DNA of 64,000 nt, from sequence record NZ_CP024444.1, one strand, 5' to 3'. Source of the stretch: a plasmid. Below, in pieces: positions 39,944 through 58,245 of this stretch (the first letter of the stretch is position 1; every line of letters begins with the position of its first letter). The notes beneath the pieces were generated by a model, which was given only the letters and a program-made list of their open reading frames with translations, was not told the DNA's origin and ran no database searches. The translations under genes were made by a program, and so were the position numbers.

Positions 39944-40780
39944 CTAGTATGACGTCTGTCGCACCTGCTTGATCGCGGCCGCGATAGCTAGATCGCGTTG
40001 CTCCTCTTCTCCATCCGCGTTCCAAGCTGCGGAAAGGCACCCATAAGCGTACGCCTGGTCGAGCAGGCGACGCGGATCGACGTCCAGCGCACGAGAGAAT
40101 GCGTCCGCCATCTGTGCAATGCGTCTAGGATCGAGACAAAGGTCGTCTCTGTCAGCCGGATCGTAGAACATATTGGCGGCGCCAAAGCCCACTTCACCGA
40201 CCAGACCGACGGGATCTATCACCAGCCAGCCGCGACTGGAGAACATGATGTTTTCATGATGCAGATCGCCATGTAGCCCACGCAGTTCCGAGGCATTGCT
40301 CATCATTTGATCGGCTATAATCGCCGCGTGGACGTAGTCAGTTTGACAACCTGCGTTTTGATCATCGCGCGCCCGCTGAAACAAAGCTGCAAAGCGATCC
40401 CGGATCGGGAGAAGGGCAGAAGGCAGGGGTTCCTCAGATGCGGCATACAGCTTCGCCATTAGTTCCGCTGCAATTTCGGTCGCCTGGTAGTCGCCGTGCT
40501 CGGCAACGATGTGAGAGAGCATTCGCTCCCCGGCATATTCGAGCAACATCAGATTGTTCTCACGACCGAGCAACCGGACTGCTCCCCTCCCATTGCGCCA
40601 TACCAGATAGTCGGCCCCGCGCAGTTCATCAGCAATGTCTTCTATAGGTTTCAATCCCTTGACGATTGCAGGAGTCCCGTCTGGCAATGAAACTTTCCAA
40701 ACGAGGCTGGAAAAGGTGTCCGCAATGAGAACAGGTTGCGAAACGTGCCAATGAGCAGGAAAAACAGGCGGCATGAACAT
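39944..40780 (-). CDS. strB: aminoglycoside 6-phosphotransferase APH(6)-Id (streptomycin resistance)
   Basis: Starts MFMPPVFPAHWHVSQPVLIADTFSSLVWKVSLPDGTPAIVKGLKP..., the recalled StrB sequence. Start overlaps the strA stop by 1 nt (TGATG). Confidence 0.95.
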   Translation of the reverse strand: MFMPPVFPAHWHVSQPVLIADTFSSLVWKVSLPDGTPAIVKGLKPIEDIADELRGADYLVWRNGRGAVRLLGRENNLMLLEYAGERMLSHIVAEHGDYQATEIAAELMAKLYAASEEPLPSALLPIRDRFAALFQRARDDQNAGCQTDYVHAAIIADQMMSNASELRGLHGDLHHENIMFSSRGWLVIDPVGLVGEVGFGAANMFYDPADRDDLCLDPRRIAQMADAFSRALDVDPRRLLDQAYAYGCLSAAWNADGEEEQRDLAIAAAIKQVRQTSY

Positions 40781-41583
40781 CAACCCCAAGTCAGAGGGTC
40801 CAATCGCAGATAGAAGGCAAGGCGTTCGCGGTCGGGGGCTTCGATCCCCAATACATTGAATAGGACAGCGAAGGCGCGCTCTGCTTCATCTGGCGCTGCC
40901 CAGTTCTCTTCGGCGTTAGCAATCATGAGTGCCAAATCGGCATAGCGATCTGCTGTTCCGAGCCGCCCAAGGTCGATCAGACCCGTGCATTGAAGAGTTT
41001 TAGGGTCCACCATGAAGTTCGGCATGCAGGGATCACCATGGCAAACAACCATATCGGTGCGCTCTTGGTCGAGCCGCACCGGTAGCTCTCGTTCGACACG
41101 AGCCAAAAGATCGAGCTGCGGCGTACTCTTGTCCTCGTCCGGTAAGAAGTCGGGATTGACGGCATTGCGGGACACCACATCAACGGCGCGTCCGAACATT
41201 CGCGACAGCCTGCGCTCAAACGGACATTGATCAACCGATAGGCTGTGAACAGCGCCAAGTTGCTGCCCCATTGACGGCCACGCTTTGAGCAAATCCGCTC
41301 CAGACAGATCAGCCGCCGGTACTCCCGGAATTGCCGTTATCACCAAGCATGCACCCTCCTGTTCCTCCTGCCAGTTGATCACCTCGGGGCAAGCCACACC
41401 TCGACCTTTGAGCCAAATGAGGCGGTCACGCTCTCCAGCGAGCTCACCGCGGCGGGAAGCAGGTGCGATTTTCGCGAAGGCATGCCCGTCACCACGTCGA
41501 AAAACAAAATCACCAGATTCTCCGCCTCTGACAGGCAACCAGTCAGAATGCGATTCACCAAAAAAAATATTAGTTCGATTCAA
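40780..41583 (-). CDS. strA: aminoglycoside 3''-phosphotransferase APH(3'')-Ib (streptomycin resistance)
   Basis: MNRTNIFFGESHSDWLPVRGGESGDFVFRRGDGHAFAKIAP... matches recalled StrA. GC-rich. Confidence 0.95.
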   Translation of the reverse strand: MNRTNIFFGESHSDWLPVRGGESGDFVFRRGDGHAFAKIAPASRRGELAGERDRLIWLKGRGVACPEVINWQEEQEGACLVITAIPGVPAADLSGADLLKAWPSMGQQLGAVHSLSVDQCPFERRLSRMFGRAVDVVSRNAVNPDFLPDEDKSTPQLDLLARVERELPVRLDQERTDMVVCHGDPCMPNFMVDPKTLQCTGLIDLGRLGTADRYADLALMIANAEENWAAPDEAERAFAVLFNVLGIEAPDRERLAFYLRLDPLTWG

Positions 41584-41659
41584 TGGAGGTTCCTTCAGTT
41601 TTCTGATGAAGCGCGGAGGTGGCTCATTTGTCTTTTCTCAACAACAACAAAATAATTTT

Positions 41660-41730: not shown

Positions 41731-41767
41731 GGAAAACCATTATAGCTTAGGAAGGCATTGAATCTCA

Positions 41768-42807: not shown

Positions 42808-42894
42808 TAATTGATATATTCGGAAGCTATAAGAGAGGTGGTCCCACTTGTTTGAACAACTAAAAGCGTATTTATAAGTGATATTCCGCTCTAG

Positions 42895-43635
42895 TTAAGC
42901 CACCTTGTTTTGTTGGGGTAGCTGATCATAGTAAAACTCATTTGGTGTCATTTTGTCTAGACTCGAATGAGGTCGTTTCAAATTATAAAACTCAAAATAT
43001 GCACTTAATTGCTTTTTCGCATCTGTGACACTGCTATAAGCTTTGAGATACACCTCTTCATATTTAACGCTCCGCCATAATCGTTCAACCATCACATTAT
43101 CTACCCATCGACCTTTACCATCCATACTGATTTGAATGCCATTTGATTTCAATACATCAATAAATGCATCACTGGTAAACTGGCTGCCTTGGTCTGTATT
43201 AAATATTTCAGGTCGACCATATTTTTCAATCGCTTCATTTAAAGCCGAAATACAAAAATCCACCTCCATACTAATCGATACCCTATGCGCAAGTACCTTG
43301 CGGCTATGCCAATCAATCACAGCACATAAATAAACAAAGCCTTTTGCCATAGGGATATACGTTATATCCGTAGACCACACTTGATTACTGCGCTGAATAG
43401 CCAACCCTTTGAGCAGATATGGATATTTACGGTGAGCTTGATTAGCCTGGCTTAAATTTGGTTTGCAATATAACGCCTGAATACCCATTTTCTTCATTAA
43501 AGTACGTGTATGACGTCGTCCTATATGATGTCCTTGACGATTCAACAAATCACGCATCATACGACTGCCTGCAAAAGGATATTGCATATGTAATTCATCA
43601 ATACATCGCATCAGCTTCAGATCTGATGCACTCAC
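42895..43635 (-). CDS. IS3-family transposase OrfB (DDE integrase)
   Basis: WSTDITYIP...DQGSQFTSDAF...ERLWRSVKYEEVYL. Confidence 0.8.
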   Translation of the reverse strand: MSASDLKLMRCIDELHMQYPFAGSRMMRDLLNRQGHHIGRRHTRTLMKKMGIQALYCKPNLSQANQAHRKYPYLLKGLAIQRSNQVWSTDITYIPMAKGFVYLCAVIDWHSRKVLAHRVSISMEVDFCISALNEAIEKYGRPEIFNTDQGSQFTSDAFIDVLKSNGIQISMDGKGRWVDNVMVERLWRSVKYEEVYLKAYSSVTDAKKQLSAYFEFYNLKRPHSSLDKMTPNEFYYDQLPQQNKVA

Positions 43636-43721
43636 AGGTTTTGGGCGATAGTAATAACAACCACGGGAGACTTTCAGCAGCTTAGCTTGCTTAGATACTG
43701 AAATCTGAAGTGAGTCGTCGA

Positions 43722-44039
43722 TTAACTTTTGTGGTTGAAGCGGCCCAGTTTCTTCAACACACCTTCTAAAAAATCAATTTCTAATGCCTGCTCACCGATT
43801 TTTGCATGTAGTTTTTTTAGATCGATGGGTGGTTCTGTTGGAGCTTTTGATTGATCGAAAGCTTGCGAGGAAGCTGAGATCAATTGATTTTTCCAGTCAA
43901 TAATTTGGTTTTGATGAACATCAAACTCAGCACTCAATTCAGCAAGTGTTTTTTCTGCTTTAATCGCAGCAAGTGCTACCTTAGCTTTAAAATCATTTGA
44001 ATGATTTCTTCTTGGTCTACGTGCCATAAAATACTCCAT
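43722..44039 (-). CDS. IS3-family transposase OrfA
   Basis: MARRPRRNHSNDFKAKVALAAIKAEKTLAELSAEFDVHQNQIIDWKNQL. Confidence 0.8.
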   Translation of the reverse strand: MEYFMARRPRRNHSNDFKAKVALAAIKAEKTLAELSAEFDVHQNQIIDWKNQLISASSQAFDQSKAPTEPPIDLKKLHAKIGEQALEIDFLEGVLKKLGRFNHKS

Positions 44040-44191
44040 ATATTGATGTTTATAACATCATTTGAGGAGCAGAATATCACTTATAGGAGTTGTTCAAATT
44101 TACGGATCCATCTCTTTATCTCAATTGAACACCTTCATGAGTCGGTTAGTATATTAATCGCTTATTTCTATCTCACTCACAGGATAAATGC

Positions 44192-44830
44192 ATGAGAAGA
44201 TTGCCAGTTTACCTTTTACTTGATACATCAGGTTCTATGTATGGAGAACCTATTGCAGCAGTAAAAAATGGCGTTGAAATGCTCTTATCAACACTACGCC
44301 AGGATCCTTACGCATTAGAAACCGCTTATATTTCTATCATCACCTTTGATTCAACCGCACAACAGATTGTACCGCTCACTGATTTAATTAATTTTAAAGT
44401 ACCTGATTTAGTCGCAAGTGGAACAACTGCATTAGGTTCAGCACTTACTTTAGTTTCCAGTCGTATTGAAAAAGAAGTACAAAAAACCACGGCTGAAACA
44501 AAAGGCGATTGGCGCCCATTAGTTTTTGTGATGACAGATGGAGCCCCAACAGACGATTGGAAAAAAGGCGTTGAGAAATTTAAAGCGGCACGCACGGGTG
44601 TTGTTATTGCGTGTGCGGCAGGACGAGCAGCACAAACTGATGTGCTAAAAAATATCACCGAAATTGTCTTACAGCTAGATACTGCGGACTCCAACACCAT
44701 TAAGTCATTCTTTAAGTGGGTTTCAGCCAGTATTTCTGTCGGTAGTCAAAAGGTCGATTTAACTAAGAAAGATATTAATGATCTTGATGACTTACCACCG
44801 CCACCTCCTGAGGTTAACGTTGTACTTTAA
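44192..44830 (+). CDS. TerY-like von Willebrand factor A (vWA) protein 1
   Basis: MIDAS motif LLLDTSGSM...S...T...MTDGAPTD. C-terminal PPPPPEV tail. 212 aa. Confidence 0.8.
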   Translation: MRRLPVYLLLDTSGSMYGEPIAAVKNGVEMLLSTLRQDPYALETAYISIITFDSTAQQIVPLTDLINFKVPDLVASGTTALGSALTLVSSRIEKEVQKTTAETKGDWRPLVFVMTDGAPTDDWKKGVEKFKAARTGVVIACAAGRAAQTDVLKNITEIVLQLDTADSNTIKSFFKWVSASISVGSQKVDLTKKDINDLDDLPPPPPEVNVVL

Positions 44831-44847
44831 ATAAAAAAGGAATGAAT

Positions 44848-45489
44848 ATGTCTGTTAGTTTAAAAAAAGGACAAGGTGTTAGTTTAAAGAAAAATGAATA
44901 TGACCTTTCCTCTGTCACTATCGGTTTAGGCTGGGATATCAACGAAGAAAAACGCGGATTTCTTGGTGGGCTTTTTGGTAAAAAAAGCGAAGAATACGAT
45001 TTAGATGTTATCGCCTTCTTATGTGGCGAAAATGGTAAAGTTAACGATTTGGGACAAATTGAAGGCGGGCAACCTTCTCTCGTCAATGGCGATATTATTT
45101 TCTTTAATAGCTTACAACACAAATCTGGACAGATTTGGTTAACGGGTGATAACCGAACTGGTGCTGGCGATGGAGACGATGAGCAGATCATCGTGAAATT
45201 AAACACACTTGATCCTAAATTTACCAAAATTGTCTTTATTGTTCAGATTTACAATGGTCGAGAGCTACAACAACACTTCGGTAAAGTACAAAACGCCTTT
45301 ATCCGCGCTGTTGATGCCAAAAATGTAGAAATGGCTCGTTTTGATTTATCTGGAGGCGAAGCCTTCAACAACCAACGTTCAATGCTGTTTGCTGAATTAG
45401 TCAGAGAAGAAAATGGCTGGAAACTTATCGCCATTGGCGAGCCTTCAAGTTCAGATAGCTTCATTTCTTACTTAAAGGACTTCACCTAA
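44848..45489 (+). CDS. TerD-family stress protein
   Basis: SLKKGQGVSLKK...LGWD..., GDNRTGAGDGDDEQI calcium-binding-type TerD motifs. The ATG at 44848 has better RBS spacing than the track start at 44842. Confidence 0.75.
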   Translation: MSVSLKKGQGVSLKKNEYDLSSVTIGLGWDINEEKRGFLGGLFGKKSEEYDLDVIAFLCGENGKVNDLGQIEGGQPSLVNGDIIFFNSLQHKSGQIWLTGDNRTGAGDGDDEQIIVKLNTLDPKFTKIVFIVQIYNGRELQQHFGKVQNAFIRAVDAKNVEMARFDLSGGEAFNNQRSMLFAELVREENGWKLIAIGEPSSSDSFISYLKDFT

Positions 45490-46127
45490 TGAGAAGACTC
45501 CCTGTTTACCTATTAATCGATACTTCTGGATCAATGAGGGGTGAATCTATTCATGCGGTTAACGTTGGCATACAAACAATGCTTAATGCATTGAGACAAG
45601 ATCCTTACGCATTAGAAAGTGTGCATATCTCCATCATTACCTATGATAATGAAGCACGTGAATTTATCCCATTAACCGCATTAGAGGATTTCCAATTCTC
45701 TGATATCACTGTACCTAGCTCTGGCGGTACTTTTACGGGGGCAGCACTGGAGTGTCTAATCAAGTGTGTCGATCGTGATATTAAACGCTCTGATGGTGAC
45801 CAAAAAGGTGACTGGCGCCCTCTCGTTTTTTTAATGACCGATGGCACACCTTCTGATGCTTACGCCTATGGTGAAGCGATTAAAGAAGTGAAAAAACGTT
45901 CATTTGGTTCGATCATCGCTTGTGCTGTTGGCCCGAAAGCCAAACACGATCACCTTAAAGAACTCACATCTCAAGTAGTGGCTTTAGAAACGCTAGACTC
46001 CAATGCCTTCTCTGGCTTCTTTAAATGGGTTTCTGCCAGTGTTGCATCCGGCAGCTCAAGTGCAGGCGTGAATACGGATAAAGATACCCTACCGCCACCA
46101 CCTCCTGAAATCCAACTGGTACTGTGA
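45489..46127 (+). CDS. TerY-like vWA protein 2
   Basis: MRRLPVYLLIDTSGSMRGE...LMTDGTPSD. Paralog of 44192-44830 (about 45% identical) with the same PPPPPE tail. Start overlaps the TerD stop (TAATG). Confidence 0.8.
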   Translation: MRRLPVYLLIDTSGSMRGESIHAVNVGIQTMLNALRQDPYALESVHISIITYDNEAREFIPLTALEDFQFSDITVPSSGGTFTGAALECLIKCVDRDIKRSDGDQKGDWRPLVFLMTDGTPSDAYAYGEAIKEVKKRSFGSIIACAVGPKAKHDHLKELTSQVVALETLDSNAFSGFFKWVSASVASGSSSAGVNTDKDTLPPPPPEIQLVL

Positions 46128-46232
46128 TCTGCAAAAGCAAAGCGCTTCAAAAGGCTTTGCTTTTATTTTATTCAGGCTTTGGTTTATTCATCACAATACA
46201 TAACAGCCACAATAAAGTGATAAGGTACAACA

Positions 46233-47273
46233 ATGAGAAGGCTACCCATTTTCTTTGTTTTAGATTGTTCAGAATCGATGATTGGTGAAAACCTAAAAAA
46301 GATGAATGACGGTCTGACAACTATTATTAGCGATCTAAGGCGTGATCCACACGCCCTTGAAACTGCTTATGTTTCTATTATCGCCTTTGCTGGCGTTGCA
46401 AAAACGATTGTTCCACTCACTGAAGTCGTCTCTTTTTACCCACCTCAACTTCCATTAGGAGGAGGCACTTCATTAGGCAGTGCATTACGAGAACTTTCTC
46501 ACCAAATCGACACTCAAGTAAGAAAAACCACGCTTGAGCAAAAAGGCGATTGGAAGCCTGTCGTTTACCTTTTAACAGATGGCAGGCCTACCGATGATTA
46601 CGCACAAGAGATCAAGCGCTGGAAAGATCACTACGCCAACAAAGTTAACTTAATTGCGATTGGATTAGGCTTAAGTGCAGACTTACATGTGCTGTCGCAA
46701 TTAACTGAAAATGTACTGTTATTTACCGAAACACAAGAAGGCGATTTTACTCGTTTTATTAAATGGATAACGATGTCAGTGGTTTCTCATAGCCGAAGTG
46801 TGGGCGAAGAGCCACCACCACTTTTAAGTCAAACAGAGCATATTGTTCGCCTTGCAAAAGATGATGTCGCGCGTGCTTATGATGAATCTTGTGTCACTTT
46901 TGTCGGCCGTTGTAGCCACACACGCTCACCTTATTTAATGAAATATGAACGCCCTCCCATGAAAGCTTCAGGGCTGGATTTTAATCTTAACCTTAATGGC
47001 TTTAACTTAACGGGTTGCTACACCTTAAATGAAGATTACTTTGCATGGAGTGATCTCAGCGCCACCGCATATCAAGTTAATACCAGTGAACTTCATGGCA
47101 CTCCAGGTTGCCCTTATTGTGGTAATGCGACTGCTTTTGCCGTTTGCCAATGTGGCAAATTGCTCTGTGTAAATGGCCCTGAAACCGTTATTTGCCCTTG
47201 GTGTGATAACAACATCACCTTTGGGGATAACAGCAATCAATCTGACTTTGATGTTACACGAGGTAAAGGCTAA
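46233..47273 (+). CDS. TerY-like vWA protein 3 with a C-terminal cysteine-rich zinc ribbon
   Basis: MRRLPIFFVLDCSESM...LLTDGRPTDD, then about 140 aa of extension ending CPYCGNATAFAVCQCGKLLCVNGPETVICPWCDNN. Confidence 0.8.
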   Translation: MRRLPIFFVLDCSESMIGENLKKMNDGLTTIISDLRRDPHALETAYVSIIAFAGVAKTIVPLTEVVSFYPPQLPLGGGTSLGSALRELSHQIDTQVRKTTLEQKGDWKPVVYLLTDGRPTDDYAQEIKRWKDHYANKVNLIAIGLGLSADLHVLSQLTENVLLFTETQEGDFTRFIKWITMSVVSHSRSVGEEPPPLLSQTEHIVRLAKDDVARAYDESCVTFVGRCSHTRSPYLMKYERPPMKASGLDFNLNLNGFNLTGCYTLNEDYFAWSDLSATAYQVNTSELHGTPGCPYCGNATAFAVCQCGKLLCVNGPETVICPWCDNNITFGDNSNQSDFDVTRGKG

Positions 47274-48769
47274 TGGATAAAAAAGCCCTACTCACAAAAC
47301 TGATTATTGATGACACACTGACACAACAGCGTATTCCGGTACATGAAGAGTTGGTTATTGCGCTGTATGAAGATACGAAAATCGCTCAACATATTGATTT
47401 TATTATTGATAGAATCAAAGCAAAAACAGCAGAAAAAATAACAACGCAAGACAAAGCACAACCTATTCTTCTGTTATTGCCACCAGCCCGCGATTTAGCC
47501 TCTGAAGAAATATCATTACCAGAAGAGAGCCTATTAAAACCGGGACAAATTCCAACACACTCATCGCCAATGCCAATAGAAAAACCGATTATTCAACGCC
47601 CTACAGCAAAAATTACTCTTTCTAATGCCAAAGTAGGTACCGCGTTTAACTCTATGCTCAATATCGAGCTAGATACTCTCGAAGTTGCTGAAATTGAAGC
47701 GGTTAATTTTCCTGAAGCACTTGGAATAAGTTTTGATCCTGAAAGTCGTTGCTTAGTAGGTATGCCAACAAAAAGTGGCAATTTCACATTGGTTGTCCAT
47801 TGGTCTGTTAATAACACTCGCTATCACAATGACGTCTTATTAATAATCAATCCTGATCCTCGTAGCTTATGGCAAATCAACGAGCCTCCCGCAGACAGCC
47901 CTTATCCTAAAGCGCATATAGATAGCAAACTTATTCTTGAAGAAGATATTCGTATTGCAGGCGCCAGCCGTCGCGGTCGCTCTCATGAACATGCAGGTAC
48001 ATTCCGTGATGATGATTTTTATATTCACCACGATGAGCAAAGCCAGTGGAATATTTTAATTGTCGCAGACGGTGCGGGTAGTGCACGCTATTCTCGTGAA
48101 GGCTCACGCATTGCTATCAATACCGTAAGCCACTATTTAAAATCACAGTTAAGCAAGGGAAATGAAACGTTTAAACCTCATCTTGAAGCCATCCATCAAT
48201 GGAATGACAATAATGCCATTAATCAAGTAGGAAGTTTCTTTGCTCAACTCTTTCGTAATGCAGCGCAATTAGCGATTAATAACCTCAAAAATGAAGCCAT
48301 TCATATTAATGAACCGGTAAAATCTTTTTCGACTACGTTATTAGCCACGGTTTCTTTGCGTATCAATGATGAGTTATTTGCTGCCTCATTTTGGATGGGA
48401 GATGGTGCTATTGCGGCTTATGGCCCAGCAGGAAAAGTGCGCATTTTAGGTACTCCTGATAGTGGTGAATATGCAGGACAAACCCGTTTTCTTGATGACA
48501 GTGCACTCAACGATGCTGAGTTTAATCGACGCATTATTATTGGTAAGTGGAAAGAAATTTCACATCTTATTTTAATGACTGACGGGGTATCTGATCCGGT
48601 ATTTGAAACAGATAATGGCTTACAAGATCCCAATAAATGGGCTGCACTCATTGATGAAATATCGCCTTGTTTAGCCTCTCCTGAAAATGCAGATAAAGCA
48701 TTGGCTGAATGGCTGAATTTCTTTTCAGCAGGCAATCACGATGACCGCACTCTGGTTGTGGCTTGGTAA
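47273..48769 (+). CDS. PP2C-family (PPM) Ser/Thr protein phosphatase with an N-terminal extension
   Basis: C-terminal 300 aa: RRGRSHEHAGTFRDDDF...LIVADGAGSARYSREGSRIA...MGDGAIAAY...LMTDGVSD...GNHDDRTLVV. Start overlaps the previous stop (TAATG). Confidence 0.75.
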   Translation: MDKKALLTKLIIDDTLTQQRIPVHEELVIALYEDTKIAQHIDFIIDRIKAKTAEKITTQDKAQPILLLLPPARDLASEEISLPEESLLKPGQIPTHSSPMPIEKPIIQRPTAKITLSNAKVGTAFNSMLNIELDTLEVAEIEAVNFPEALGISFDPESRCLVGMPTKSGNFTLVVHWSVNNTRYHNDVLLIINPDPRSLWQINEPPADSPYPKAHIDSKLILEEDIRIAGASRRGRSHEHAGTFRDDDFYIHHDEQSQWNILIVADGAGSARYSREGSRIAINTVSHYLKSQLSKGNETFKPHLEAIHQWNDNNAINQVGSFFAQLFRNAAQLAINNLKNEAIHINEPVKSFSTTLLATVSLRINDELFAASFWMGDGAIAAYGPAGKVRILGTPDSGEYAGQTRFLDDSALNDAEFNRRIIIGKWKEISHLILMTDGVSDPVFETDNGLQDPNKWAALIDEISPCLASPENADKALAEWLNFFSAGNHDDRTLVVAW

Positions 48770-48787
48770 TCATAAAAGAGAGAATGG

Positions 48788-50296
48788 GTGAGTTTCATGG
48801 CAGAGATCATTACCTGTACAACGCAAAGTGGAAAAACAGTTCAGTACGTCAATGAAATTATTGGCTCTGGCTCAATGAAAGATGTCTATTTTTCCCCTGA
48901 CCGAACCTATGTTGTTGCCTTCTATAAAACAGAACAGAATGCACAAGCTAAAGATAGGATCGATATGATAACAGGCTCTTATCGACATAATATCTTTGAG
49001 CAAAGTGGCGGAGAATATTGGAAAAACCTCTTTTGCTGGCCAACAGATGTTGTCGAACATCAAGGCAAAATTGGTATTGTTATTCCGACTTATCAATCCC
49101 ACTTTTTCTTTAAATATGGTTCTAAAAACAACGACTTTCTGGCAATAAAAGGCCGAGAAAAAGAAGGTAAATGGTTTGCAAGTGCCAACAACCAAAATAA
49201 ATTTCTCGATCCTCGCGAAAGAGGTAATCTATTAAATTATCTGAAAGTCTGTTTACTGCTCTCTCGTGCCGTGCGCCGAATGCATGCCGCAGGCTTATGC
49301 CATAGTGATTTAAGCTATAAAAACGTCCTTATCGATCCTGAGCAAGGTCATGCCTGTGTTATTGATATTGACGGTTTAGTGGTTCCCGGCAAATACCCAC
49401 CTGATGTTGTGGGAACTCCTGACTTTATTGCGCCAGAAGTGGTAAAAACTAGTCATTTACCGAAAGAAGATCCTAATCGTATTTTGCCAAGCATTACGAC
49501 CGATAGACACGCACTTGCGGTATTAATCTATATGTATCTATTTTATCGTCATCCATTACGTGGCGGTAAAATTCACGATCTTGACGATGAAATGCGTGAT
49601 GAAACACTGTCTATGGGTGAAAAAGCACTGTTTATTGAGCACCCAACCGATCGTAGCAATGCGGTCAAATTGAATCAGGTAAAACCGTCATCTCTTCCTT
49701 GGGCGGATCCTGAAAAAATCCCATACACGATTATGGGGCCATACCTAACGCCTCTTTTTGAAAGAGCTTTTATTACAGGGTTACACAATCCTTCGCAACG
49801 CCCTACCGCAGATGAATGGGAAACCGCTTTAGTCAAAACGGTAGATTTAGTTCAGCCTTGTCAAAATAAAGACTGTGAACAGCAATGGTATGTTTTCTCA
49901 GGAAAAACACAGCCCGTTTGTCCTTATTGTCACACCCCATATAAAGGGCAATTGCCGATTTTAAATCTCTACTCATCACGTAAAGCCGGTAGCTTCAGAC
50001 CCGACGATCACCGCTTAATGGTTTGGAGTAATCAATCACTGTTTCCTTGGCATGTTAATCGCCTTATTGCGCCTAATGAACGCACCACCGATGAACAGAA
50101 AAAGCGTGTAGGTTATTTTGTTTATCACAATTCAATATGGTGGCTTGTTAATGAGCGTATTGATGGATTAATGGTATTGCCAGAGAAAAAGCAGATAGCG
50201 ATTGGCGATAAAATTGCCCTAACTGATGGGTTGCAATTTGTATTATCGACAGAAGAAGGCGGGCGACTTGTTGTGGTGCAATTAGTGTCTAATTAA
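48788..50296 (+). CDS. Ser/Thr protein kinase with a C-terminal zinc ribbon
   Basis: VVAFYK (beta-3 Lys), catalytic loop LCHSDLSYKNVLID, DIDG (DFG-like), GTPDFIAPE (APE). C-terminal CQNKDC...CPYC. Track start is GTG; an ATG at 48797 is an alternative. Confidence 0.8.
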   Translation: MSFMAEIITCTTQSGKTVQYVNEIIGSGSMKDVYFSPDRTYVVAFYKTEQNAQAKDRIDMITGSYRHNIFEQSGGEYWKNLFCWPTDVVEHQGKIGIVIPTYQSHFFFKYGSKNNDFLAIKGREKEGKWFASANNQNKFLDPRERGNLLNYLKVCLLLSRAVRRMHAAGLCHSDLSYKNVLIDPEQGHACVIDIDGLVVPGKYPPDVVGTPDFIAPEVVKTSHLPKEDPNRILPSITTDRHALAVLIYMYLFYRHPLRGGKIHDLDDEMRDETLSMGEKALFIEHPTDRSNAVKLNQVKPSSLPWADPEKIPYTIMGPYLTPLFERAFITGLHNPSQRPTADEWETALVKTVDLVQPCQNKDCEQQWYVFSGKTQPVCPYCHTPYKGQLPILNLYSSRKAGSFRPDDHRLMVWSNQSLFPWHVNRLIAPNERTTDEQKKRVGYFVYHNSIWWLVNERIDGLMVLPEKKQIAIGDKIALTDGLQFVLSTEEGGRLVVVQLVSN

Positions 50297-50306
50297 TAAA
50301 GTAAAA

Positions 50307-50348
50307 GAATAATCCGTTTAATTTATCGCGGGTTATTCTCTTTTTTCA
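50307..50348. terminator. probable bidirectional rho-independent terminator
   Basis: AAGAATAATCCG...CGGGTTATTCTCTTTTTT between convergent genes. Confidence 0.45.
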
Positions 50349-50359
50349 TGATATTAAAT

Positions 50360-50797
50360 TTAATCTTGAGCTCCAAGCTTAAATTCCATAACAAAATTTA
50401 AATCTTTTGCTGGTTTTCCTGTTTCATAGCGCCATTGTTCCATAGCGTGAATAAGTGACAAACCAAAAACATCCACTAAAGGGGAATCTAACACCCTAAT
50501 ATTTTGTACATACCCATTTTCGTCAACATCAAATTTAACCTTTAATTCTCCTTCCATCCTATTAAAAGCCGCTTTTACAGGATAATTAGGTAATACTCGT
50601 AATAAATTCTTAGGATAACCTTTAACCGTAAGATTTAACTCTTTTATTTCACTTTGAGTCATTTTCTCTGGTTCATCGGCTAATTTTGGTTTCAATAACA
50701 AATTAGATTGAGCATCCGGCTGTATTGATTGAATAGCACATCCATTTAGTAAAATAGTGCCGCAAAATAAACTTAAAATAGCTAATTTTATTTTCAT
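50360..50797 (-). CDS. lipoprotein with a TonB C-terminal-like domain
   Basis: Lipobox LLNGC. C-terminal P-x-YP...A...EG-V-V-F-V...G-V pattern of the TonB_C fold. Confidence 0.55.
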   Translation of the reverse strand: MKIKLAILSLFCGTILLNGCAIQSIQPDAQSNLLLKPKLADEPEKMTQSEIKELNLTVKGYPKNLLRVLPNYPVKAAFNRMEGELKVKFDVDENGYVQNIRVLDSPLVDVFGLSLIHAMEQWRYETGKPAKDLNFVMEFKLGAQD

Positions 50798-51055
50798 TTT
50801 TCTTTTCTAAAATAAGATTAAGTATAAAAAACACAATAGCACATATCATAATCATTTCTATTCTCACCTCTATATTTAGTTAAGAAAAACTGTGCAATTA
50901 ATCCTATTTTTGCCATTTTATTTAAATCAAAGTCAGATCACATATTTACCACTCCCACTTCCCATTTAGCGCTAACGTTCAATATTGGATATCAAGATCC
51001 CAGTTTATTAAGCCTCATTATTTACAATACCCTACAGTGATAATTGGAGGCATGA

Positions 51056-52024
51056 ATGAAAACTAAAAATAAAATCAATGTGCTAGAACTTATTTCGCCA
51101 GAAATGAAGCAAGTTATGCAATTTTATGCAGATAATCCTCAACCTACGCCAGAAAATGATGGTTATCCATCAATGCGTCTTGCTTATAATCAAGATAGGC
51201 GTTATTGGAATGCGGATGCGCCAGAGATGTTTAGCATACAAGATATTTCAGTAAGTACTTCTTATGGAAATGTATTAACGCGTCTTTATAAACCCAAACA
51301 AAAAACACCCGCAACACTCTATTATCTGCATGGCGGTGGTTTTATTTTAGGGAACTTAGATACTCACGATCGCATTATGCGACTACTTGCCTGCTATACC
51401 GGTTGTGCAGTTATTGGTATTGACTATTCATTATCTCCCGAAGCTCGCTATCCCCAAGCCATCGATGAATCAGCGCAGGTTTGTCAGTATTATCATCAAA
51501 ATGCAAAATACTATGATATTAATACGCAACATATCGGTTTTGCGGGTGATTCTGCGGGTGCAATGCTGTCTCTTGCTACCGTATTGTGGCTACGCGACAA
51601 ACAAATTCACTGCGGCAATATCAGTGCAGTTTTGCTTTGGTATGGATTATATGGATTACGCGATTCCACCAGCCGTCGCCTTTATGGAGGGGAATGGGAT
51701 GGATTGCGCCAGCAAGATCTAGAAGAATATGATAATGCATATCTAACCGCACTTGGCAGTCGCGATGCTCCTTATTATTGCTTATTTAATAATGATTTAA
51801 CGCAAGATATTCCGCCTTGCTTTATCGCCAGCGCACAATATGACCCACTTATTGATGATAGTGTGACGCTATTTAAAACCTTAGAAGCCCATCAATTAGC
51901 TTGTGAATATAAAATGTATCCAGGCACATTACATGCTTTTTTACACTACTCACGCATGATGAAAGTGGCTGATGACGCCATTCGAGATGGTGCTCACTAC
52001 TTTGTCAAACAACTCACTTTGTAA
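51056..52024 (+). CDS. alpha/beta-hydrolase esterase/lipase (hormone-sensitive-lipase / Aes family)
   Basis: HGGGF oxyanion motif, GDSAG nucleophile elbow, C-terminal DPL...H. Confidence 0.8.
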
Positions 52025-52036
52025 AATGTCAGCCTA

Positions 52037-52750
52037 TTAAAACTCAAGATTTCGAATAAAACGATAATCCGCGGACGCCTCTTTAAGTCGATACAGACTT
52101 GCGGGGCGTCCTCTTTCTGCACGCTTTTCTCCAGTATCAATTAATAAATCGGCTTGTTCGATGCGTCGCCTAAATGATTTTTTCTGGATCTCTTTACCAA
52201 TCAGAATTTCATGAACATGTTGCAATTCTGGCAAGGTAAATACTTCTGGTAATGCAAATCCGGGAACAATCGAATAAAGTGATTTTTGCTTTAATCGCTC
52301 TCTCGCTTGGACAATTAATTTATGGTGATCAAACGCTAAGCTTTGTTGTGCAATCTCATCAATAGGACACCACATCACCGAATCTACGGTATCTATATGC
52401 GCTTCACAGGCTTGATGTGCAATTAACGCGGTATAACAAACCGTCACCGACCAACCTCTTACATCACGCTGGCTATTTCCCACTGAACAGAGTTGCTCTA
52501 TATAAGGGGGGATCACGCCCGTTTTCTCTTTTAATTTTCTTAGCACCGTATCTTCAAGGCATTTGTCTTGCACTTCATCGATAAATCCACCTGGTAAGCC
52601 CCATTTTCCTTTTTCAGGATGCTCCCCTCTTTTCACCAACAACACTTTTAACTGCTCTTCATGATAAGTAAACAGTACGGCATCAATGGTGATCAGTGGA
52701 GATAGGAAATCACGACGGTTATAACTGGCTAAAAAATCTTGTTCATTCAT
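52037..52750 (-). CDS. nrtR: NrtR-family Nudix-related transcriptional regulator (Nudix domain plus C-terminal wHTH)
   Basis: Nudix box GKWGLPGGFIDEVQDKCLEDTVLRKLKEKTG, then a wHTH-like C-terminus (FTLPELQHVHEILIGKEIQKKSFRRRI...LYR). Start placed at the ATG 52750 (MNEQDF). Confidence 0.65.
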   Translation of the reverse strand: MNEQDFLASYNRRDFLSPLITIDAVLFTYHEEQLKVLLVKRGEHPEKGKWGLPGGFIDEVQDKCLEDTVLRKLKEKTGVIPPYIEQLCSVGNSQRDVRGWSVTVCYTALIAHQACEAHIDTVDSVMWCPIDEIAQQSLAFDHHKLIVQARERLKQKSLYSIVPGFALPEVFTLPELQHVHEILIGKEIQKKSFRRRIEQADLLIDTGEKRAERGRPASLYRLKEASADYRFIRNLEF

Positions 52751-52847
52751 GGCGTAAGCTTTATTAAAAAACGATGAAACTATTTTAAGCCTAAACAGCA
52801 AAAAATCAAATTTTGTCATAAAGACACTAAATCAGTTGACAAAGATA

Positions 52848-52862
52848 GTGTCGATAGGACAC
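52848..52862. promoter_or_regulatory. palindrome GTGTCGATAGGACAC in the nrtR/SPFH divergent intergenic region (candidate operator)
   Basis: Inverted GTGTC...GACAC. GACACTAA is also repeated 3 times within the 84-bp intergenic region. Confidence 0.35.
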
Positions 52863-52903
52863 AATTCAGTTAATGTCACAAGGACACTAACTGGAGAGAC
52901 ACT

Positions 52904-53923
52904 ATGTTTAATTTAAATTACTCTAAAGCTGATTCATCAACATTCATTATCAAATCCGTCAATGGTCGCGTTCGCCAACAAGGTAAAGGCTTGAGTTTTT
53001 GGTATAACTCCGCCACAACCTCCATTGCGGCATTGCCTTTAAACGCTCAAGAAGCACCTTTTATTTTTAATTTCCAAACCTCGGACTTTCAGGGTTTACG
53101 TATTCAAGGGCAAATCTCATTTCAGGTTAAAGCGCCCGAAAAAGCCGCAGAAGTACTCAACTTTAACTTGAGCAAAAACGGCAAATCGTATGCTTCTGAA
53201 GATCCGCTCAAACTCAGTGATCGTGTTGTACGTATTGCACAAACCTTAATTCAAGCAAAGATCCAAAGTACACCACTTAGAGAAGCGTTATTACTTAGCC
53301 AATCATTAGTGACTTTAGTGATGGAACAATTAATTGAACATCCATCATTAGAGGCATTAGGTATTGCGATTTTAGATGTCTCTATAGCGGCAATCACACC
53401 ATCACCAGAAACCTTAAAAGCACTAGAAGCTGAAGCGAGAGAATCCTTACTGAAAGAAGCCGACGATGCCATTTATGCTCGTCGTAAATTCTCAGTAGAA
53501 CAAGAGCGCACCATTAAAGAGGCTGAATTAGAAACCGATTTATCTGTTCAACGTAAACGCCAAGAGATTGAAGAAGCACGTTTAGAAAACGAACGTACAT
53601 TACTACGCGAACAAGCTGAGATTGAAAAAGAACGCCTTGAAGCCAAAGTTAATGCGGAAGCAAAACGCAAAGAACTAGTCGCATTAAGTGCTGAAAATCA
53701 GCGAACACAATCAGAAGCGGATGCTTATGCTATTGAAGCTACCATGCGTGCTTATCGTGAATTACCAGTTGAGAACCTAAAAGCAATGGCATTAGCAAAA
53801 ATGGACTCACAACAATTAATGGCAATGGCATTTGAAACCTTAGCACTGAATTCAGGAAAAATCGGCGAGTTGAATATCACACCTGATTTATTTAGCCAAT
53901 TTATGAAAAAAGGCAGTAAATAA
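52904..53923 (+). CDS. SPFH/band-7 (flotillin/stomatin-like) domain protein with a coiled-coil C-terminus
   Basis: 339 aa. N-terminal SPFH-like beta/alpha region, then a long charged coiled-coil (EQERTIKEAELETDLSVQRKRQEIEEARLENERTLLREQAEIEKERLEAK). Confidence 0.55.
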   Translation: MFNLNYSKADSSTFIIKSVNGRVRQQGKGLSFWYNSATTSIAALPLNAQEAPFIFNFQTSDFQGLRIQGQISFQVKAPEKAAEVLNFNLSKNGKSYASEDPLKLSDRVVRIAQTLIQAKIQSTPLREALLLSQSLVTLVMEQLIEHPSLEALGIAILDVSIAAITPSPETLKALEAEARESLLKEADDAIYARRKFSVEQERTIKEAELETDLSVQRKRQEIEEARLENERTLLREQAEIEKERLEAKVNAEAKRKELVALSAENQRTQSEADAYAIEATMRAYRELPVENLKAMALAKMDSQQLMAMAFETLALNSGKIGELNITPDLFSQFMKKGSK

Positions 53924-54867
53924 TGCAACGTAACGAAGATTTTCGCTTTGTGCTGGTGATGAGAAAAAGCCGCTTACAGGAATTAATTGAGCGCTTTAAT
54001 ACCTGGTCACAAGCCAAATTCTATTTAGAACACAACAATGTTGAGGTAAAGGATTATCTCAATGAACACAATTTATATCAAAAGCAACTCACAGAAGCTG
54101 AGTTGATTTTAAAATCATTAGGACGATTTCAACTTTTAGAAAGAGGCTTATTACCCAGCTATCAATTCTCACCTCACGATATTGTGGTGGTGATTGGTCA
54201 AGATGGGCTTGTTGCCAATACGCTGAAATACCTTAATGGACAGCCTATCATTGCCATAAATCCTGATCCATCAAGGTGGGATGGTAAATTATTACCCTTT
54301 GAAATAGGGCAATTAAAAGAGACAGTTATTAACACCATTAATAAAAAAATGCCATTTAAAACGGTCACTTTTGCACAAGCAACAACCAATGATGGTCAAT
54401 CCTTATTAGCGGTTAATGACTTATTTATTGGCCCTAAAAGCCACACTTCCGCACAGTATATTTTGCAATGGAATGGCGCTGAAGAAGTGCAATCTTCATC
54501 AGGCATTATTGTATCAACAGGATTGGGATCAACGGGGTGGTTTCAATCTATTCTTGCTGGTGCGATGGCAATTACAGGAGAAGCTTCGCACCCTCTATTA
54601 CAAGGCTTTAGCTGGAGTGATCGAAAGCTACAATTTAGTGTAAGAGAGCCATTTCCAAGTAGAACAACAGGTGTTGCACTGACTTTTGGCACTATTGAGC
54701 CTGACTCACCACTGCAATTAGGATCTTTGATGCCAGAGAATGGCGTAATTTTCTCTGATGGCATCGAAGATGACTATTTACAATTTAATGCAGGTTGTAT
54801 TGCTCACATTGGTATCGCTGACATACAAGGGCAACTAATTAGCCAAAAAGGGCGTCAGCGAATTTAG
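53923..54867 (+). CDS. NAD kinase-like (ATP-NAD/DAGK catalytic fold) protein
   Basis: VVVIGQDGLVANT (GGDG-like), NDLFIG, STGLGSTGWFQS (NAD kinase conserved region). Translationally coupled to the SPFH gene (TAATG). Confidence 0.6.
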   Translation: MQRNEDFRFVLVMRKSRLQELIERFNTWSQAKFYLEHNNVEVKDYLNEHNLYQKQLTEAELILKSLGRFQLLERGLLPSYQFSPHDIVVVIGQDGLVANTLKYLNGQPIIAINPDPSRWDGKLLPFEIGQLKETVINTINKKMPFKTVTFAQATTNDGQSLLAVNDLFIGPKSHTSAQYILQWNGAEEVQSSSGIIVSTGLGSTGWFQSILAGAMAITGEASHPLLQGFSWSDRKLQFSVREPFPSRTTGVALTFGTIEPDSPLQLGSLMPENGVIFSDGIEDDYLQFNAGCIAHIGIADIQGQLISQKGRQRI

Positions 54868-54869
54868 AT

Positions 54870-55496
<627 letters not shown>

Positions 55497-55524
55497 CTAC
55501 CTCAAAATAAAATAGCCTTGACAA

Positions 55525-55540
55525 TCTATCACTGATAGAG
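55525..55540. promoter_or_regulatory. tet operator 1 (TCTATCACTGATAGAG)
   Basis: Canonical tetO palindrome in the tetR-tet intergenic region. Confidence 0.85.
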
Positions 55541-55553
55541 ATATTTTACACCC

Positions 55554-55570
55554 ACTCTATCACTGATAGA
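55554..55570. promoter_or_regulatory. tet operator 2 (ACTCTATCACTGATAGA)
   Basis: Second tetO copy 13 bp downstream. Confidence 0.85.
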
Positions 55571-55584
55571 TTTTTAGGATCTCA

Positions 55585-56787: not shown

Positions 56788-57113
56788 TACTAGAAATTAT
56801 AAAGATCATAAAAGTCCTGTCCGCTCTTAATAACGTTGATAGGACTTTATTTTTATCGCAATTAATAAGCCTCTTTTACCCAAGGCTTACTGGCTGCAAT
56901 CATAAACATCGGCGTTGAACGATAAAGCAGGTAAGGGAGTCGTTTAGTTACATAGTTATTTTATGATAGTTATTTTCAATCATATTCACCCTGAGTAAAA
57001 AAAACAAATATTTCATTATTAATTTACTTTTTATTTACATTGTGAAATTATTATCCAACTAAAAATAAAAATAGAATTTCTATTAGTTTTAGCTCTATTT
57101 AATTAAGAATTAT

Positions 57114-57901: not shown

Positions 57902-58245
57902 AAAAATCAAACTACGAAAAATATCCTAAGCATATTTTATAAGTGCATCCCCCAACGCGCCAAAAATATGGCACAAGAAATATCCTAAGCATAAGAGAAC
58001 TTTTTTAAAAAACCGTCCCCAATGTTAATATTGTGACCTGAAGCTAAAAATGGTACAATCTAAGGACACTTCAGGCAAAACTCAACTGCCTAGCATACTT
58101 TCAAAACTTTGTCAAATTTTCAAATTTCCAATTTTTCCAAAAAACGTGCAAAAATAAAAAAATGGTTACCAAAATGGTTACCAAAAATTTTTATAAAAAT
58201 TTCTCTAAACCACTCTATTACTGCGTTTCAGAAGATTTTGTATAG

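What the first reader, a model, noticed from the sequence alone, without database searches (positions are those of the whole stretch)
44192..50296. Expanded TerY-P-type operon: three vWA (TerY) paralogs, TerD, PP2C phosphatase and Ser/Thr kinase with zinc ribbons
Six co-directional, translationally coupled genes (stop/start overlaps TAATG at 45489 and 47273) encode:
- three MIDAS-containing vWA proteins, two of them with PPPPPE tails;
- a TerD-family protein;
- a PPM/PP2C phosphatase with a 200-aa N-terminal extension;
- a eukaryotic-like Ser/Thr kinase (HxD-KxxN, APE motifs).
The third vWA and the kinase each end in a Cys4 zinc ribbon.

The vWA + PP2C + kinase triad is the TerY-P module proposed by comparative genomics and later reported as an antiphage defence system. 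The arrangement here (three vWA paralogs plus an embedded TerD) is richer than the canonical three-gene system. It sits directly beside a truncated plasmid rep gene, an IS3-family element and strAB, so it is plasmid- or island-borne. It is a good candidate for a phosphorylation-controlled defence or stress module whose vWA paralogs may each recognise a different trigger.
Basis: partly seen in the sequence, partly recalled or inferred. Interest (0 to 1): 0.8.

Follow-up and report, generated by a model that had tools for sequence, protein, structure and literature searches.

The report
Stray fragment of the ter locus
The six genes are real, but they are the ordinary, long-known terY1-terX-terY2-terY3-phosphatase-kinase part of the tellurite-resistance (ter) stress locus, here cut out of a Proteus chromosome and carried as a passenger beside the tet(H) tetracycline-resistance gene into Moraxella osloensis DNA, not an expanded new defence system.

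Summary
Observation confirmed. 44192-50296 holds six co-directional genes: vWA, TerD, vWA, vWA+TerY_C, PP2C and Ser/Thr kinase (Pfam E 1e-10 to 1e-53).

Interpretation only partly right. The "expanded" layout is the standard terY1-terX-terY2-terY3-PP2C-kinase block of the classical ter locus.
- IncHI2 plasmids have the same order and sizes, with 55-84 % identical 1:1 orthologues.
- 325 of 5426 complete E. coli genomes carry it.
- 53 of 54 fully flanked loci from six phyla have the three vWA genes plus PP2C and kinase.

In this window the block is the left end of a 13.0-kb segment (44116-57113). That segment is 99.2-99.99 % identical to chromosomal contigs of a Proteus species. There it follows terW, the ter biosynthetic genes and terZ/terA-like TerD genes, all of which are missing here. 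The segment lies between ISAba14 and an IS1-family element, in a strAB/tet(H) resistance region on a Moraxella osloensis backbone.

The module is therefore most likely a hitch-hiker of tet(H), cut off from its partners.

New details: the kinase ends in a Cys4 zinc ribbon plus an FHA-fold domain, and the phosphatase carries an Ig-like N-terminal domain.

Verdict: already known, low interest.

The parts
44116..57113 (.). 13.0-kb segment of Proteus chromosomal DNA. It carries terY1..kinase, a TonB_C gene, an esterase, a NUDIX/NrtR gene, an SPFH gene, a 314-aa gene and tetR(H)-tet(H).
   Evidence: Single blastn HSPs at 99.18-99.99 % to contigs L001-L008 (128-439 kb), starting and ending exactly here. 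It is 79-92 % identical and syntenic in six named Proteus species.
44126..44155 (+). Promoter-like site (TGAACA-18-TATATT) inside the only 76 bp of native upstream DNA that is retained.
   Evidence: Consensus scan. The junction was read by comparing. The source genome has a 523-bp intergenic region and terW upstream. Function not shown.
44192..44830 (+). terY1: vWA protein (212 aa) with MIDAS and an LPPPPPEVNVVL tail.
   Evidence: Pfam VWA. 76 % identical to the first vWA of the IncHI2 block. Tail and MIDAS conservation.
44842..45489 (+). terX: TerD-family protein.
   Evidence: Pfam TerD 8.8e-53. 82 % identical to the IncHI2 TerD gene in the same position.
45489..46127 (+). terY2: vWA protein (212 aa) with MIDAS and an LPPPPPEIQLVL tail.
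   Evidence: Pfam VWA. 84 % identical to the IncHI2 orthologue. Tail and MIDAS conservation.
46233..47273 (+). terY3: vWA + TerY_C metal-binding domain (8 conserved Cys).
   Evidence: Pfam VWA + TerY_C 1.4e-50. 75 % identical to the protein in 2240 enterobacterial plasmids. Conserved cysteines. 252 clusters at 50 % identity with E<=1e-30.
47273..48769 (+). PP2C phosphatase. N-terminal three-helix bundle (1-55), disordered linker with an LKPGQIP motif, Ig-like domain (111-195), NPDPRSLW motif, then the PP2C_2 domain (234-482).
48788..50296 (+). Ser/Thr kinase + Cys4 zinc ribbon (C358-C381) + FHA-fold domain (about 388-501). Probable true start is the ATG at 48797.
42895..44115 (-). ISAba14 (IS3 family). 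Its outer end at 44115 forms the left junction and replaces terW and the rest of the ter locus.
   Evidence: 99.98 % identical to the strAB-rep-ISAba14 module of pKLH80, ending at 44115. Transposase ORFs.
54870..56787 (.). tetR(H) (minus strand) and tet(H) (plus strand): the selectable cargo of the segment.
   Evidence: Pfam TetR_N/TetR_C_1 and MFS_1. 99.96 % nt identity to tetR(H)-tet(H) of pKLH80. The identical Tet protein occurs in 2892 blocks of the collection.
57114..57907 (+). IS1-family element (ISPa14-like) forming the right junction.
   Evidence: 99-99.9 % identical to annotated ISPa14 copies. Pfam DDE_Tnp_IS1. Junction sequence.
39944..41583 (-). strB-strA (aph(6)-Id, aph(3'')-Ib), part of the same resistance region.

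Best explanation
The six genes are the terY1-terX-terY2-terY3-PP2C-kinase block, i.e. the 'TerY-P' signalling arm of the classical ter (tellurite-resistance / stress-response) locus.

Provenance:
- In this window the block does not sit in its native setting.
- It is the left end of a 13.0-kb piece of a Proteus chromosome.
- ISAba14 cut that piece 76 bp upstream of terY1, which removed terW, the ter biosynthetic genes and terZABCDE.
- The piece ends just downstream of tetR(H)-tet(H), where an IS1-family element forms the right junction.
- It now sits with strAB in a resistance region on a Moraxella osloensis backbone.
- The ter genes are most likely passengers of tet(H).

How the module works in its native locus (inferred, not shown):
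- It is a reversible Ser/Thr phosphorylation switch.
- The kinase has intact catalytic motifs, a Cys4 zinc ribbon and an FHA-fold domain that probably binds phosphothreonine.
- The PP2C has an Ig-like N-terminal docking domain.
- Kinase and PP2C set the phosphorylation state of the metal-binding TerY vWA proteins and/or TerX.
- The conserved LPPPPPE-x-N-x-V-L tails of TerY1/TerY2 probably act as docking peptides.
- The switch gates the TerD/TerC and biosynthetic arms of the ter system.

Without those arms the block here is probably idle. At most it acts as a residual stand-alone switch.
For: Identity:
- Pfam domains.
- Identical gene order and protein lengths in IncHI2 plasmid pAGR6137a, next to terW, ATP-grasp/PRTase/StiP/lyase genes and terZ-terD.
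- 1:1 orthology of 76/82/84/75/55/83 %, against 38-49 % between the vWA paralogues.
- The block has a published name, terWY1XY2Y3 (PMC11003894). PMC8115787 describes a 14-gene cluster that includes terXYW.
- 2240 plasmids and 325 of 5426 E. coli genomes carry it.
- 53 of 54 fully flanked loci from six phyla have two vWA genes + TerY3 + PP2C + kinase. 52 of 54 have further TerD genes within 10 kb.

Provenance:
- Sister contigs show TerD, TerD, ATPgrasp_Ter, PRTase_2/TRSP, StiP/PELOTA_1, C-C_Bond_Lyase and a TerW orthologue directly upstream.
- Homology to the window starts at 44116 and ends at 57113, at 99.2-99.99 %.
- Named Proteus species are syntenic at 79-92 %.
- The flanks 26125-39841 and 59562-64000 match M. 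osloensis pMOXF1 at 98 % and are collinear with it.
- The exact proteins are recorded under Faucicola (Moraxella) osloensis and as 'MULTISPECIES Gammaproteobacteria'.
- The IS ends lie exactly at both junctions.
- tet(H) identity.

Mechanism:
- Conserved catalytic, MIDAS and Cys residues.
- FHA fold.
- Ig-like fold.
- Conserved tails.
- The phosphorylation-switch hypothesis for TerY-P is as summarised in PMC11090510.
Against: - All six ORFs are intact, and a promoter-like site survives in the 76 bp that were kept. Expression and some residual activity cannot be excluded.
- TerY-P triads can defend against T7-like phages on their own (PMC7699616; 10.1101/2022.08.12.503731).
- No experiment links kinase, PP2C and TerY proteins in any ter locus that I could read. 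The substrate assignment, the FHA-phosphothreonine binding and the role of the tails are inference.
The best named relatives reach only 88-92 % nt identity.
- The replicon type of the window (plasmid or chromosomal island) is not settled. The six-gene block (44192-50296) has no near match in the plasmid collection.
Confidence: 0.82

Rival explanations
1. This is a self-sufficient, expanded TerY-P anti-phage defence system carried by a plasmid or island. Its three vWA paralogues each sense a different trigger.
For: - The triad domains and catalytic motifs are intact.
- TerY-P triads protect against T7-like phages and Autographiviridae.
- The R478 ter cluster was reported to inhibit phages (cited in PMC8115787).
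- The ORFs are intact and a promoter-like site is retained.
Against: - The layout is not expanded. It is the ancestral norm.
- In the donor genus it is a syntenic chromosomal locus embedded in the ter system.
- The experimentally tested TerY-P modules have a kinase with a C-terminal OB fold, per PMC11090510. Here the domain is FHA-like.
- No PADLOC model hits the vWA, TerD or PP2C proteins even at E<=10.
- Linkage to tet(H) explains the mobility without any selection on the ter genes.
Confidence: 0.12
2. It is a working tellurite/oxidative-stress resistance determinant that Moraxella acquired.
For: More complete ter clusters that include terXY1W gave better survival under tellurite than terBCDEF alone (PMC11003894).
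Against: - terZ, terA, terB, terC, terD, terE, terW and the biosynthetic genes are absent from all 64 kb. No blastn match to the 7.9 kb upstream of terY1 in the source was found.
- The constructs that conferred tellurite resistance in that paper all contain terBCDE.
Confidence: 0.03
3. The Proteus segment is an assembly chimera, joined to Moraxella DNA through shared IS copies, and not a real molecule.
For: Both junctions lie at IS ends, and the window holds several IS copies.
Against: - The IS ends abut Proteus DNA at positions where the Proteus contigs have no IS. IS insertion into this DNA is therefore real.
- The same strAB-rep-ISAba14 module and the tet(H) unit occur together in Moraxellaceae plasmids such as pKLH80.
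- The exact proteins are deposited under M. osloensis.
Confidence: 0.03

Closest known systems
terY1-terX-terY2-terY3 (+PP2C, +kinase) block of the classical ter locus (terWY1XY2Y3 / terZABCDEF) of IncHI2 plasmids such as R478, of E. coli, and of Proteus, Yersinia and Klebsiella
   Same: Same six genes, same order, nearly the same lengths (212/213/212/346/545/499 against 212/215/212/346/498/499-502). Positional orthologues are 55-84 % identical, with a TerY_C domain on the third vWA.
   Different: - Here the block is severed from terW, the biosynthetic genes and terZABCDE.
- The first ~86 residues of the PP2C (the three-helix bundle and most of the linker) diverge. The alignment covers residues 87-498 only, i.e. 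it includes the Ig-like domain.
TerY-P (TerY-phosphorylation) triad of Anantharaman, Iyer and Aravind 2012, as summarised in PMC11090510 and PMC4978471
   Same: TerY-like vWA + PP2C + Ser/Thr kinase with a C-terminal zinc ribbon, in one operon.
   Different: This is the ter-locus form, with three vWA paralogues and TerX, not the single-vWA triad attached to McrBC/CoCoNuT or DNA-processing modules. I could not read the 2012 paper itself.
TerY-P anti-phage system tested by Gao et al. 2020, and the P. aeruginosa variant (10.1101/2022.08.12.503731)
   Same: The same three enzyme and sensor classes.
   Different: - The tested kinases carry an OB fold where this one has a zinc ribbon + FHA-like domain.
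- The tested system is a stand-alone three-gene system.
- No defence-model hit for the vWA or PP2C proteins here.
Type VI secretion threonine-phosphorylation pathway PpkA-PppA-Fha1 of Pseudomonas aeruginosa (from my own knowledge, not tested here)
   Same: The same domain set: Ser/Thr kinase, PP2C phosphatase, FHA domain and vWA domain, working as a post-translational on/off switch.
   Different: - The domains are distributed differently. There the vWA is fused to the kinase and FHA is a separate protein.
- No homology beyond the domain level was examined.
- There are no T6SS genes here.
Mobile tetR(H)-tet(H) units (pKLH80 of Psychrobacter; Pasteurellaceae-size chromosomes L091-L098)
   Same: Identical tet(H) DNA at 99.7-100 %.
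   Different: Those units start at window positions 54322/54420/54688, inside the 314-aa gene. This window keeps 10.2 kb more of the donor chromosome, including the whole TerY block.

Membership tests
ter-locus terY1-terX-terY2-terY3-PP2C-kinase block | Gene order vWA-TerD-vWA-vWA/TerY_C-PP2C-kinase, co-directional | tested here: met
   The same order appears in the 24 of 54 fully flanked loci that have the embedded TerD. In the others the TerD genes lie just upstream.
ter-locus terY1-terX-terY2-terY3-PP2C-kinase block | Each protein is the positional orthologue of the IncHI2 gene, i.e. closer to it than to its own paralogues | tested here: met
   76/82/84/75/55/83 % identity to the positional orthologues, against 38-49 % between the vWA paralogues.
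ter-locus terY1-terX-terY2-terY3-PP2C-kinase block | Physical linkage to terW, the ATP-grasp/PRTase/StiP/lyase genes and terZABCDE | tested here: not met
   Absent from the 64-kb window. Present immediately upstream in the donor contigs. The window therefore holds a truncated copy.
TerY-P triad (comparative-genomics definition) | TerY-like vWA domain with an intact MIDAS | tested here: met
   Pfam VWA in three proteins. DxSxS, T and D are at least 95 % conserved.
TerY-P triad (comparative-genomics definition) | PP2C-family phosphatase in the same operon | tested here: met
   PP2C_2 9.8e-49. Conserved acidic motifs in the alignment.
TerY-P triad (comparative-genomics definition) | Ser/Thr kinase with a C-terminal zinc ribbon | tested here: met
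   Pkinase 6.4e-10. HxDxxxxN, DxDG and APE motifs, and Cys4 C358/C363/C378/C381, are conserved in 69 orthologues.
TerY-P anti-phage defence system (Gao 2020; defence-finder models) | Proteins recognised by curated defence-system HMMs | tested here: inconclusive
   PADLOC-DB v2.0.0 gives no model for vWA, TerD or PP2C even at E<=10. The kinase has only weak hits to mad6, PD-T4-6 and MkoA. I could not verify that this library holds TerY-P models. DefenseFinder is not available.
TerY-P anti-phage defence system (Gao 2020; defence-finder models) | Kinase fused to a C-terminal OB fold, as PMC11090510 describes the tested modules | tested here: not met
   [not shown]
TerY-P anti-phage defence system (Gao 2020; defence-finder models) | Protection against phage when expressed alone | not testable with these tools
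   Needs cloning and a phage challenge.
FHA domain (C-terminus of the kinase) | 11-stranded beta-sandwich FHA fold | tested here: met
   [not shown]
FHA domain (C-terminus of the kinase) | Phosphothreonine-binding Arg/Ser/His/Asn set | tested here: inconclusive
   R409, H422 and N455 are at least 95 % conserved in 69 orthologues. S417, R409 and H422 are invariant in a 30-sequence alignment. Their placement in the binding loops was not checked residue by residue.
Tellurite-resistance determinant | Presence of terB, terC, terD and terE | tested here: not met
   No such genes in the window. The only TerD-family gene is terX.

The most novel reading that the evidence does not exclude
The severed block is not idle. 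In this reading the three TerY proteins, TerX, the PP2C and the kinase form a self-contained phosphorylation-gated sensor that still gives Moraxella a benefit (phage or metal stress) without terZABCDE.

Assembly would run through two interactions not recorded in the sources I could read:
- the FHA domain of the kinase reading phosphothreonine;
- the phylum-spanning LPPPPPE-x-N-x-V-L tails of TerY1/TerY2 docking on the Ig-like domain of the phosphatase.

This would make the window a natural 'minimal ter signalling arm' experiment.
Probability: 0.1. Interest if true: 0.45.

Novelty: already known. Interest (0 to 1): 0.18.

Why it matters
For the finding as posed, very little. The gene set is the textbook ter accessory block. 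It is present in hundreds of E. coli genomes and thousands of plasmids, so it should not be flagged as a new or expanded defence system.

Two by-products have some value:
- **Untested ter-locus module.** Its kinase carries a zinc ribbon plus an FHA fold, and its phosphatase an Ig-like domain. Those features give concrete handles (FHA-phosphothreonine, tail docking) for the long-open question of what TerY/TerX do.
- **tet(H) history.** The window preserves 13 kb of donor context around tet(H). That points to a Proteus species as the likely chromosomal source of this widespread veterinary tetracycline-resistance gene. It also shows how resistance-gene capture drags unrelated stress or defence genes across families, here from Morganellaceae to Moraxellaceae.

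Tried and rejected
- **Early guesses, all rejected.** I first took the window for Acinetobacter DNA with tet(B), and then took the tet pair for the tet(J)-type gene I recalled for Proteus mirabilis. The Tet protein is identical to Tet(H) of pKLH80 and of Pasteurellaceae-size genomes. The backbone is Moraxella osloensis.
- **Plasmid collection.** A megablast of the six genes against 72,556 plasmids found nothing. Only the protein-level search revealed the IncHI2 orthologues.
- **PADLOC.** Run at E<=0.01 and at E<=10. There were no hits for the vWA, TerD or PP2C proteins.
- **Pfam on the unassigned parts.** Searched at E<=10 on the PP2C N-terminus, the kinase N-terminus and the kinase C-terminus. 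Nothing credible came up, so I used structure prediction instead.
- **NCBIfam.** It gave only far-below-cutoff partial hits.
- **Papers not held.** The primary TerY-P paper (Anantharaman 2012: PMC4104200 and its DOI) and Whelan 1995 (PMC177279) are not in the library. Their content is cited only through papers that summarise them.
- **Donor species.** The genome-contig scan returned no genome with about 100 % identity. The best named species reach 96-98 % aa and 88-92 % nt.
- **tet(H) origin in the literature.** One search for a published origin of tet(H) was uninformative.
- **tRNA search.** No tRNA gene was found that would mark an island boundary.
- **Composition.** The base-composition profile shows no contrast between the Proteus segment and its flanks.

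Full report
**1. Observation**

The region 44192-50296 holds six co-directional ORFs. The Pfam hits are far beyond chance:
- VWA, 3.7e-13
- TerD, 8.8e-53
- VWA, 2e-13
- VWA 1.3e-14 plus TerY_C 1.4e-50
- PP2C_2, 9.8e-49 (residues 234-482 of 498)
- Pkinase, 6.4e-10

The ORF coordinates show one-base stop/start overlaps at 45489 and 47273. The MIDAS residues of all three vWA proteins, the kinase motifs HxDxxxxN, DxDG and APE, and the PPPPPE tails are present. They are at least 95 % conserved across 69-79 orthologues.

Three points need correcting:
- The kinase has a genuine Cys4 ribbon (C358/C363/C378/C381). TerY3 has eight conserved cysteines, i.e. the TerY_C domain.
- The kinase probably starts at the ATG at 48797 and is 499 aa long.

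**2. What the gene set is**

A protein search of TerY3 against plasmids found it at about 75 % identity in 2240 mostly IncHI2-type enterobacterial plasmids, with three vWA places per record.

The annotated region of one such plasmid, pAGR6137a, reads terD-terC-terB-terA(TerD family)-terZ on one strand. On the other strand it reads ATP-grasp, PRTase, a hypothetical protein, StiP, an HpcH-type lyase, DUF4236 and terW. Then follow VWA (212 aa), TerD (213), VWA (212), TerY-C (346), PP2C (545) and kinase (499).

Each window protein is the positional orthologue of the plasmid protein, at 76, 82, 84, 75, 55 and 83 % identity. The three vWA paralogues are only 38-49 % identical to one another. The triplication is therefore old.

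The literature already names this block. PMC11003894 calls it terWY1XY2Y3 next to terZABCDEF. PMC8115787 describes a 14-gene cluster that includes terXYW.

The block is common:
- 325 of 5426 complete E. coli genomes hold the whole block, at 294 plasmid and 58 chromosomal places.
- TerY3-like proteins form 252 clusters at 50 % identity with E<=1e-30.
- I examined 80 loci from Gamma- and Betaproteobacteria, Desulfuromonadota, Campylobacterota, Chloroflexota and Bacteroidota. Of the 54 with full 10-kb flanks:
  - 53 have two vWA genes + TerY3 + PP2C + kinase with almost constant lengths;
  - 24 have the TerD gene embedded between the vWA genes;
  - 52 have further TerD-family genes within 10 kb.

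**3. Where this copy comes from**

The exact TerY3 protein occurs on 128-439-kb contigs. There the six genes are preceded by two TerD-family genes, ATPgrasp_Ter, PRTase_2/TRSP, StiP/PELOTA_1, C-C_Bond_Lyase and a 163-aa ORF. That ORF is 60 % identical to IncHI2 TerW.

These contigs match the window in one block, 44116-57113, at 99.18-99.99 %, and nowhere else. Named Proteus species (columbae, penneri, vulgaris, hauseri, cibi, faecis) are syntenic over the whole 21 kb at 79-92 %. The donor is therefore a Proteus species of the vulgaris/penneri group, which I could not name.

The window on either side is different DNA:
- 26125-39841 and 59562-64000 are 98 % identical to, and collinear with, Moraxella osloensis pMOXF1.
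- 1-25000 matches other M. osloensis plasmids in part (11-20 % of the stretch, at about 92 %).
- The exact proteins are deposited under Faucicola (Moraxella) osloensis and as 'MULTISPECIES Gammaproteobacteria'.

The junctions:
- The left junction is the outer end of ISAba14 at 44115. This element belongs to a strAB-rep-ISAba14 module that is 99.98 % identical to that of the permafrost plasmid pKLH80.
- Only 76 bp of the native 523-bp region upstream of terY1 survive.
- The right junction is the inverted repeat of an IS1-family (ISPa14-like) element at 57114.

terW, the biosynthetic genes and terZABCDE are absent from the 64 kb.

**4. Why the fragment moved**

The right end of the segment carries tetR(H)-tet(H).
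- The Tet protein is identical to one found in 2892 blocks of the collection, including 2.2-2.7-Mb chromosomes.
- The DNA is 99.96 % identical to the tet(H) region of pKLH80.
- In those other mobile contexts the shared DNA starts at 54322, 54420 or 54688, inside the 314-aa gene.
- This window keeps 10.2 kb more of the donor chromosome.

The simplest reading is that selection acted on tet(H) (and strAB), and that the TerY block came along because an IS happened to cut 76 bp upstream of terY1.

**5. Defence-system question**

TerY-P triads are a recognised comparative-genomics unit: vWA, PP2C, and a kinase with a zinc ribbon. They are hypothesised to be a metal-sensing phosphorylation switch (PMC11090510; PMC4978471).

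Stand-alone TerY-P-like modules protect against T7-like phages and Autographiviridae. According to PMC11090510, however, the tested modules have a kinase fused to an OB fold and not to a zinc ribbon.

Here no PADLOC model matches the vWA, TerD or PP2C proteins, even at E<=10. The kinase gives only weak generic kinase hits. I could not confirm that the library contains TerY-P models, so I rate this inconclusive.

It is met.

**6. Anatomy that bears on mechanism**

*Phosphatase N-terminus*:
- a three-helix bundle, residues 1-55;
- a variable disordered linker that ends in a conserved LKPGQIP motif;
- an invariant NPDPRSLW motif.

*TerY tails.* TerY1 and TerY2 end in LPPPPPE-x-N/Q-x-V-L from Proteus to Flavobacterium.

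**7. Proposed mechanism**

This section is inference.
- In the native locus, kinase and PP2C set the phosphorylation state of TerY and/or TerX.
- The FHA domain reads phosphothreonine.
- The proline tails and the Ig-like domain are docking elements.
- The MIDAS, TerY_C and TerD sites bind metal.
- The output is control of the TerD/TerC and biosynthetic arms.

The domain set (kinase, PP2C, FHA, vWA) is the same as in the T6SS threonine-phosphorylation pathway PpkA/PppA/Fha1. This comparison rests on my own knowledge and was not tested.

In this window the output arms are missing. The block is therefore probably idle. It is still intact because the transfer is recent (99.99 % identity to one donor contig).

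**8. Rivals and verdict**

| Explanation | Confidence | Main point |
|---|---|---|
| Active stand-alone defence system | 0.12 | Not excluded: the ORFs are intact and a promoter-like site (44126-44155) is kept |
| Working tellurite-resistance determinant | 0.03 | Contradicted by the absence of terBCDE |
| Assembly chimera | 0.03 | Unlikely: the IS ends abut Proteus DNA at sites that are IS-free in Proteus, and the proteins are deposited under M. osloensis |

The 'TerY-P type' label is correct. The 'expanded, novel' claim is wrong. The plasmid/island context is real but secondary. Novelty: already known. Interest: low.

Noticed in passing
window 54262-57113 (tetR(H)-tet(H) and flanks); loci L001-L008, L091-L101: Mobile tet(H) units in Pasteurellaceae-size chromosomes and in pKLH80 are 99.7-100 % identical to a stretch of an unnamed Proteus species' chromosome. 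Several other Proteus species (P. vulgaris, P. cibi, Proteus sp. FME41) have orthologous tetR-tet genes at the same locus, at 88-90 % nt, the same divergence as the flanks. That Proteus species looks like the source of tet(H). This window holds the longest piece of donor context I saw (13 kb). I did not establish whether this origin is published.
   Followed up: partly
window 57105-57120; L092/L097 7520-7535: The right end of the Proteus-derived DNA differs by only 3 bp between two contexts. In this window it reads ...GAATTAT|GGTGGTG (IS1-family inverted repeat). In the Pasteurellaceae units it reads ...GAATTATTTG|GGTATAC (ISL3-family inverted repeat). This is either an AT-rich insertion hot spot or a shared earlier boundary.
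   Followed up: partly
[not shown]
   Followed up: yes
window 44795-44830 and 46092-46127; orthologues in L009-L089: TerY1 and TerY2 end in a motif, LPPPPPE-x-N/Q-x-V-L, that is conserved from Gammaproteobacteria to Bacteroidota. It looks like a docking peptide. The partner is unknown.
   Followed up: partly
window 47273-47974 (PP2C residues 1-234): The phosphatase N-terminal extension is modular. It has a variable helical bundle, a length-variable low-complexity linker (up to about 150 extra residues in Yersinia and Pectobacterium), an invariant LKPGQIP motif, an Ig-like dystroglycan-type domain and an invariant NPDPRSLW motif.
   Followed up: yes
window 1-535, 10159-11441, 24015-25287: There are three copies of an IS3-family element, about 86 % identical to ISPpy1 of pKLH80. 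The window is IS-rich.
   Followed up: no
window 1-25000: The best plasmid match (M. osloensis CP024445, 92 %) lists an 'anti-phage deoxyguanosine triphosphatase' and a patatin-like phospholipase among the features under the match. Real defence genes may therefore lie elsewhere in the window.
   Followed up: no
window 52037-54867: A NUDIX/NrtR-type regulator, an SPFH (Band 7) protein and a translationally coupled 314-aa protein without any Pfam hit travel with the segment. They are conserved next to the ter locus in Proteus.
   Followed up: no
window 39833-59562 against pMOXF1 134611-143362: The roughly 19.7-kb resistance region replaces about 8.7 kb of the pMOXF1-type backbone, including its replication initiation gene and a Tn3-family element. 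The six-gene block (44192-50296) has no near match in the plasmid collection, and the window holds no tRNA gene. Whether it is a plasmid or a chromosomal island is open.
   Followed up: partly
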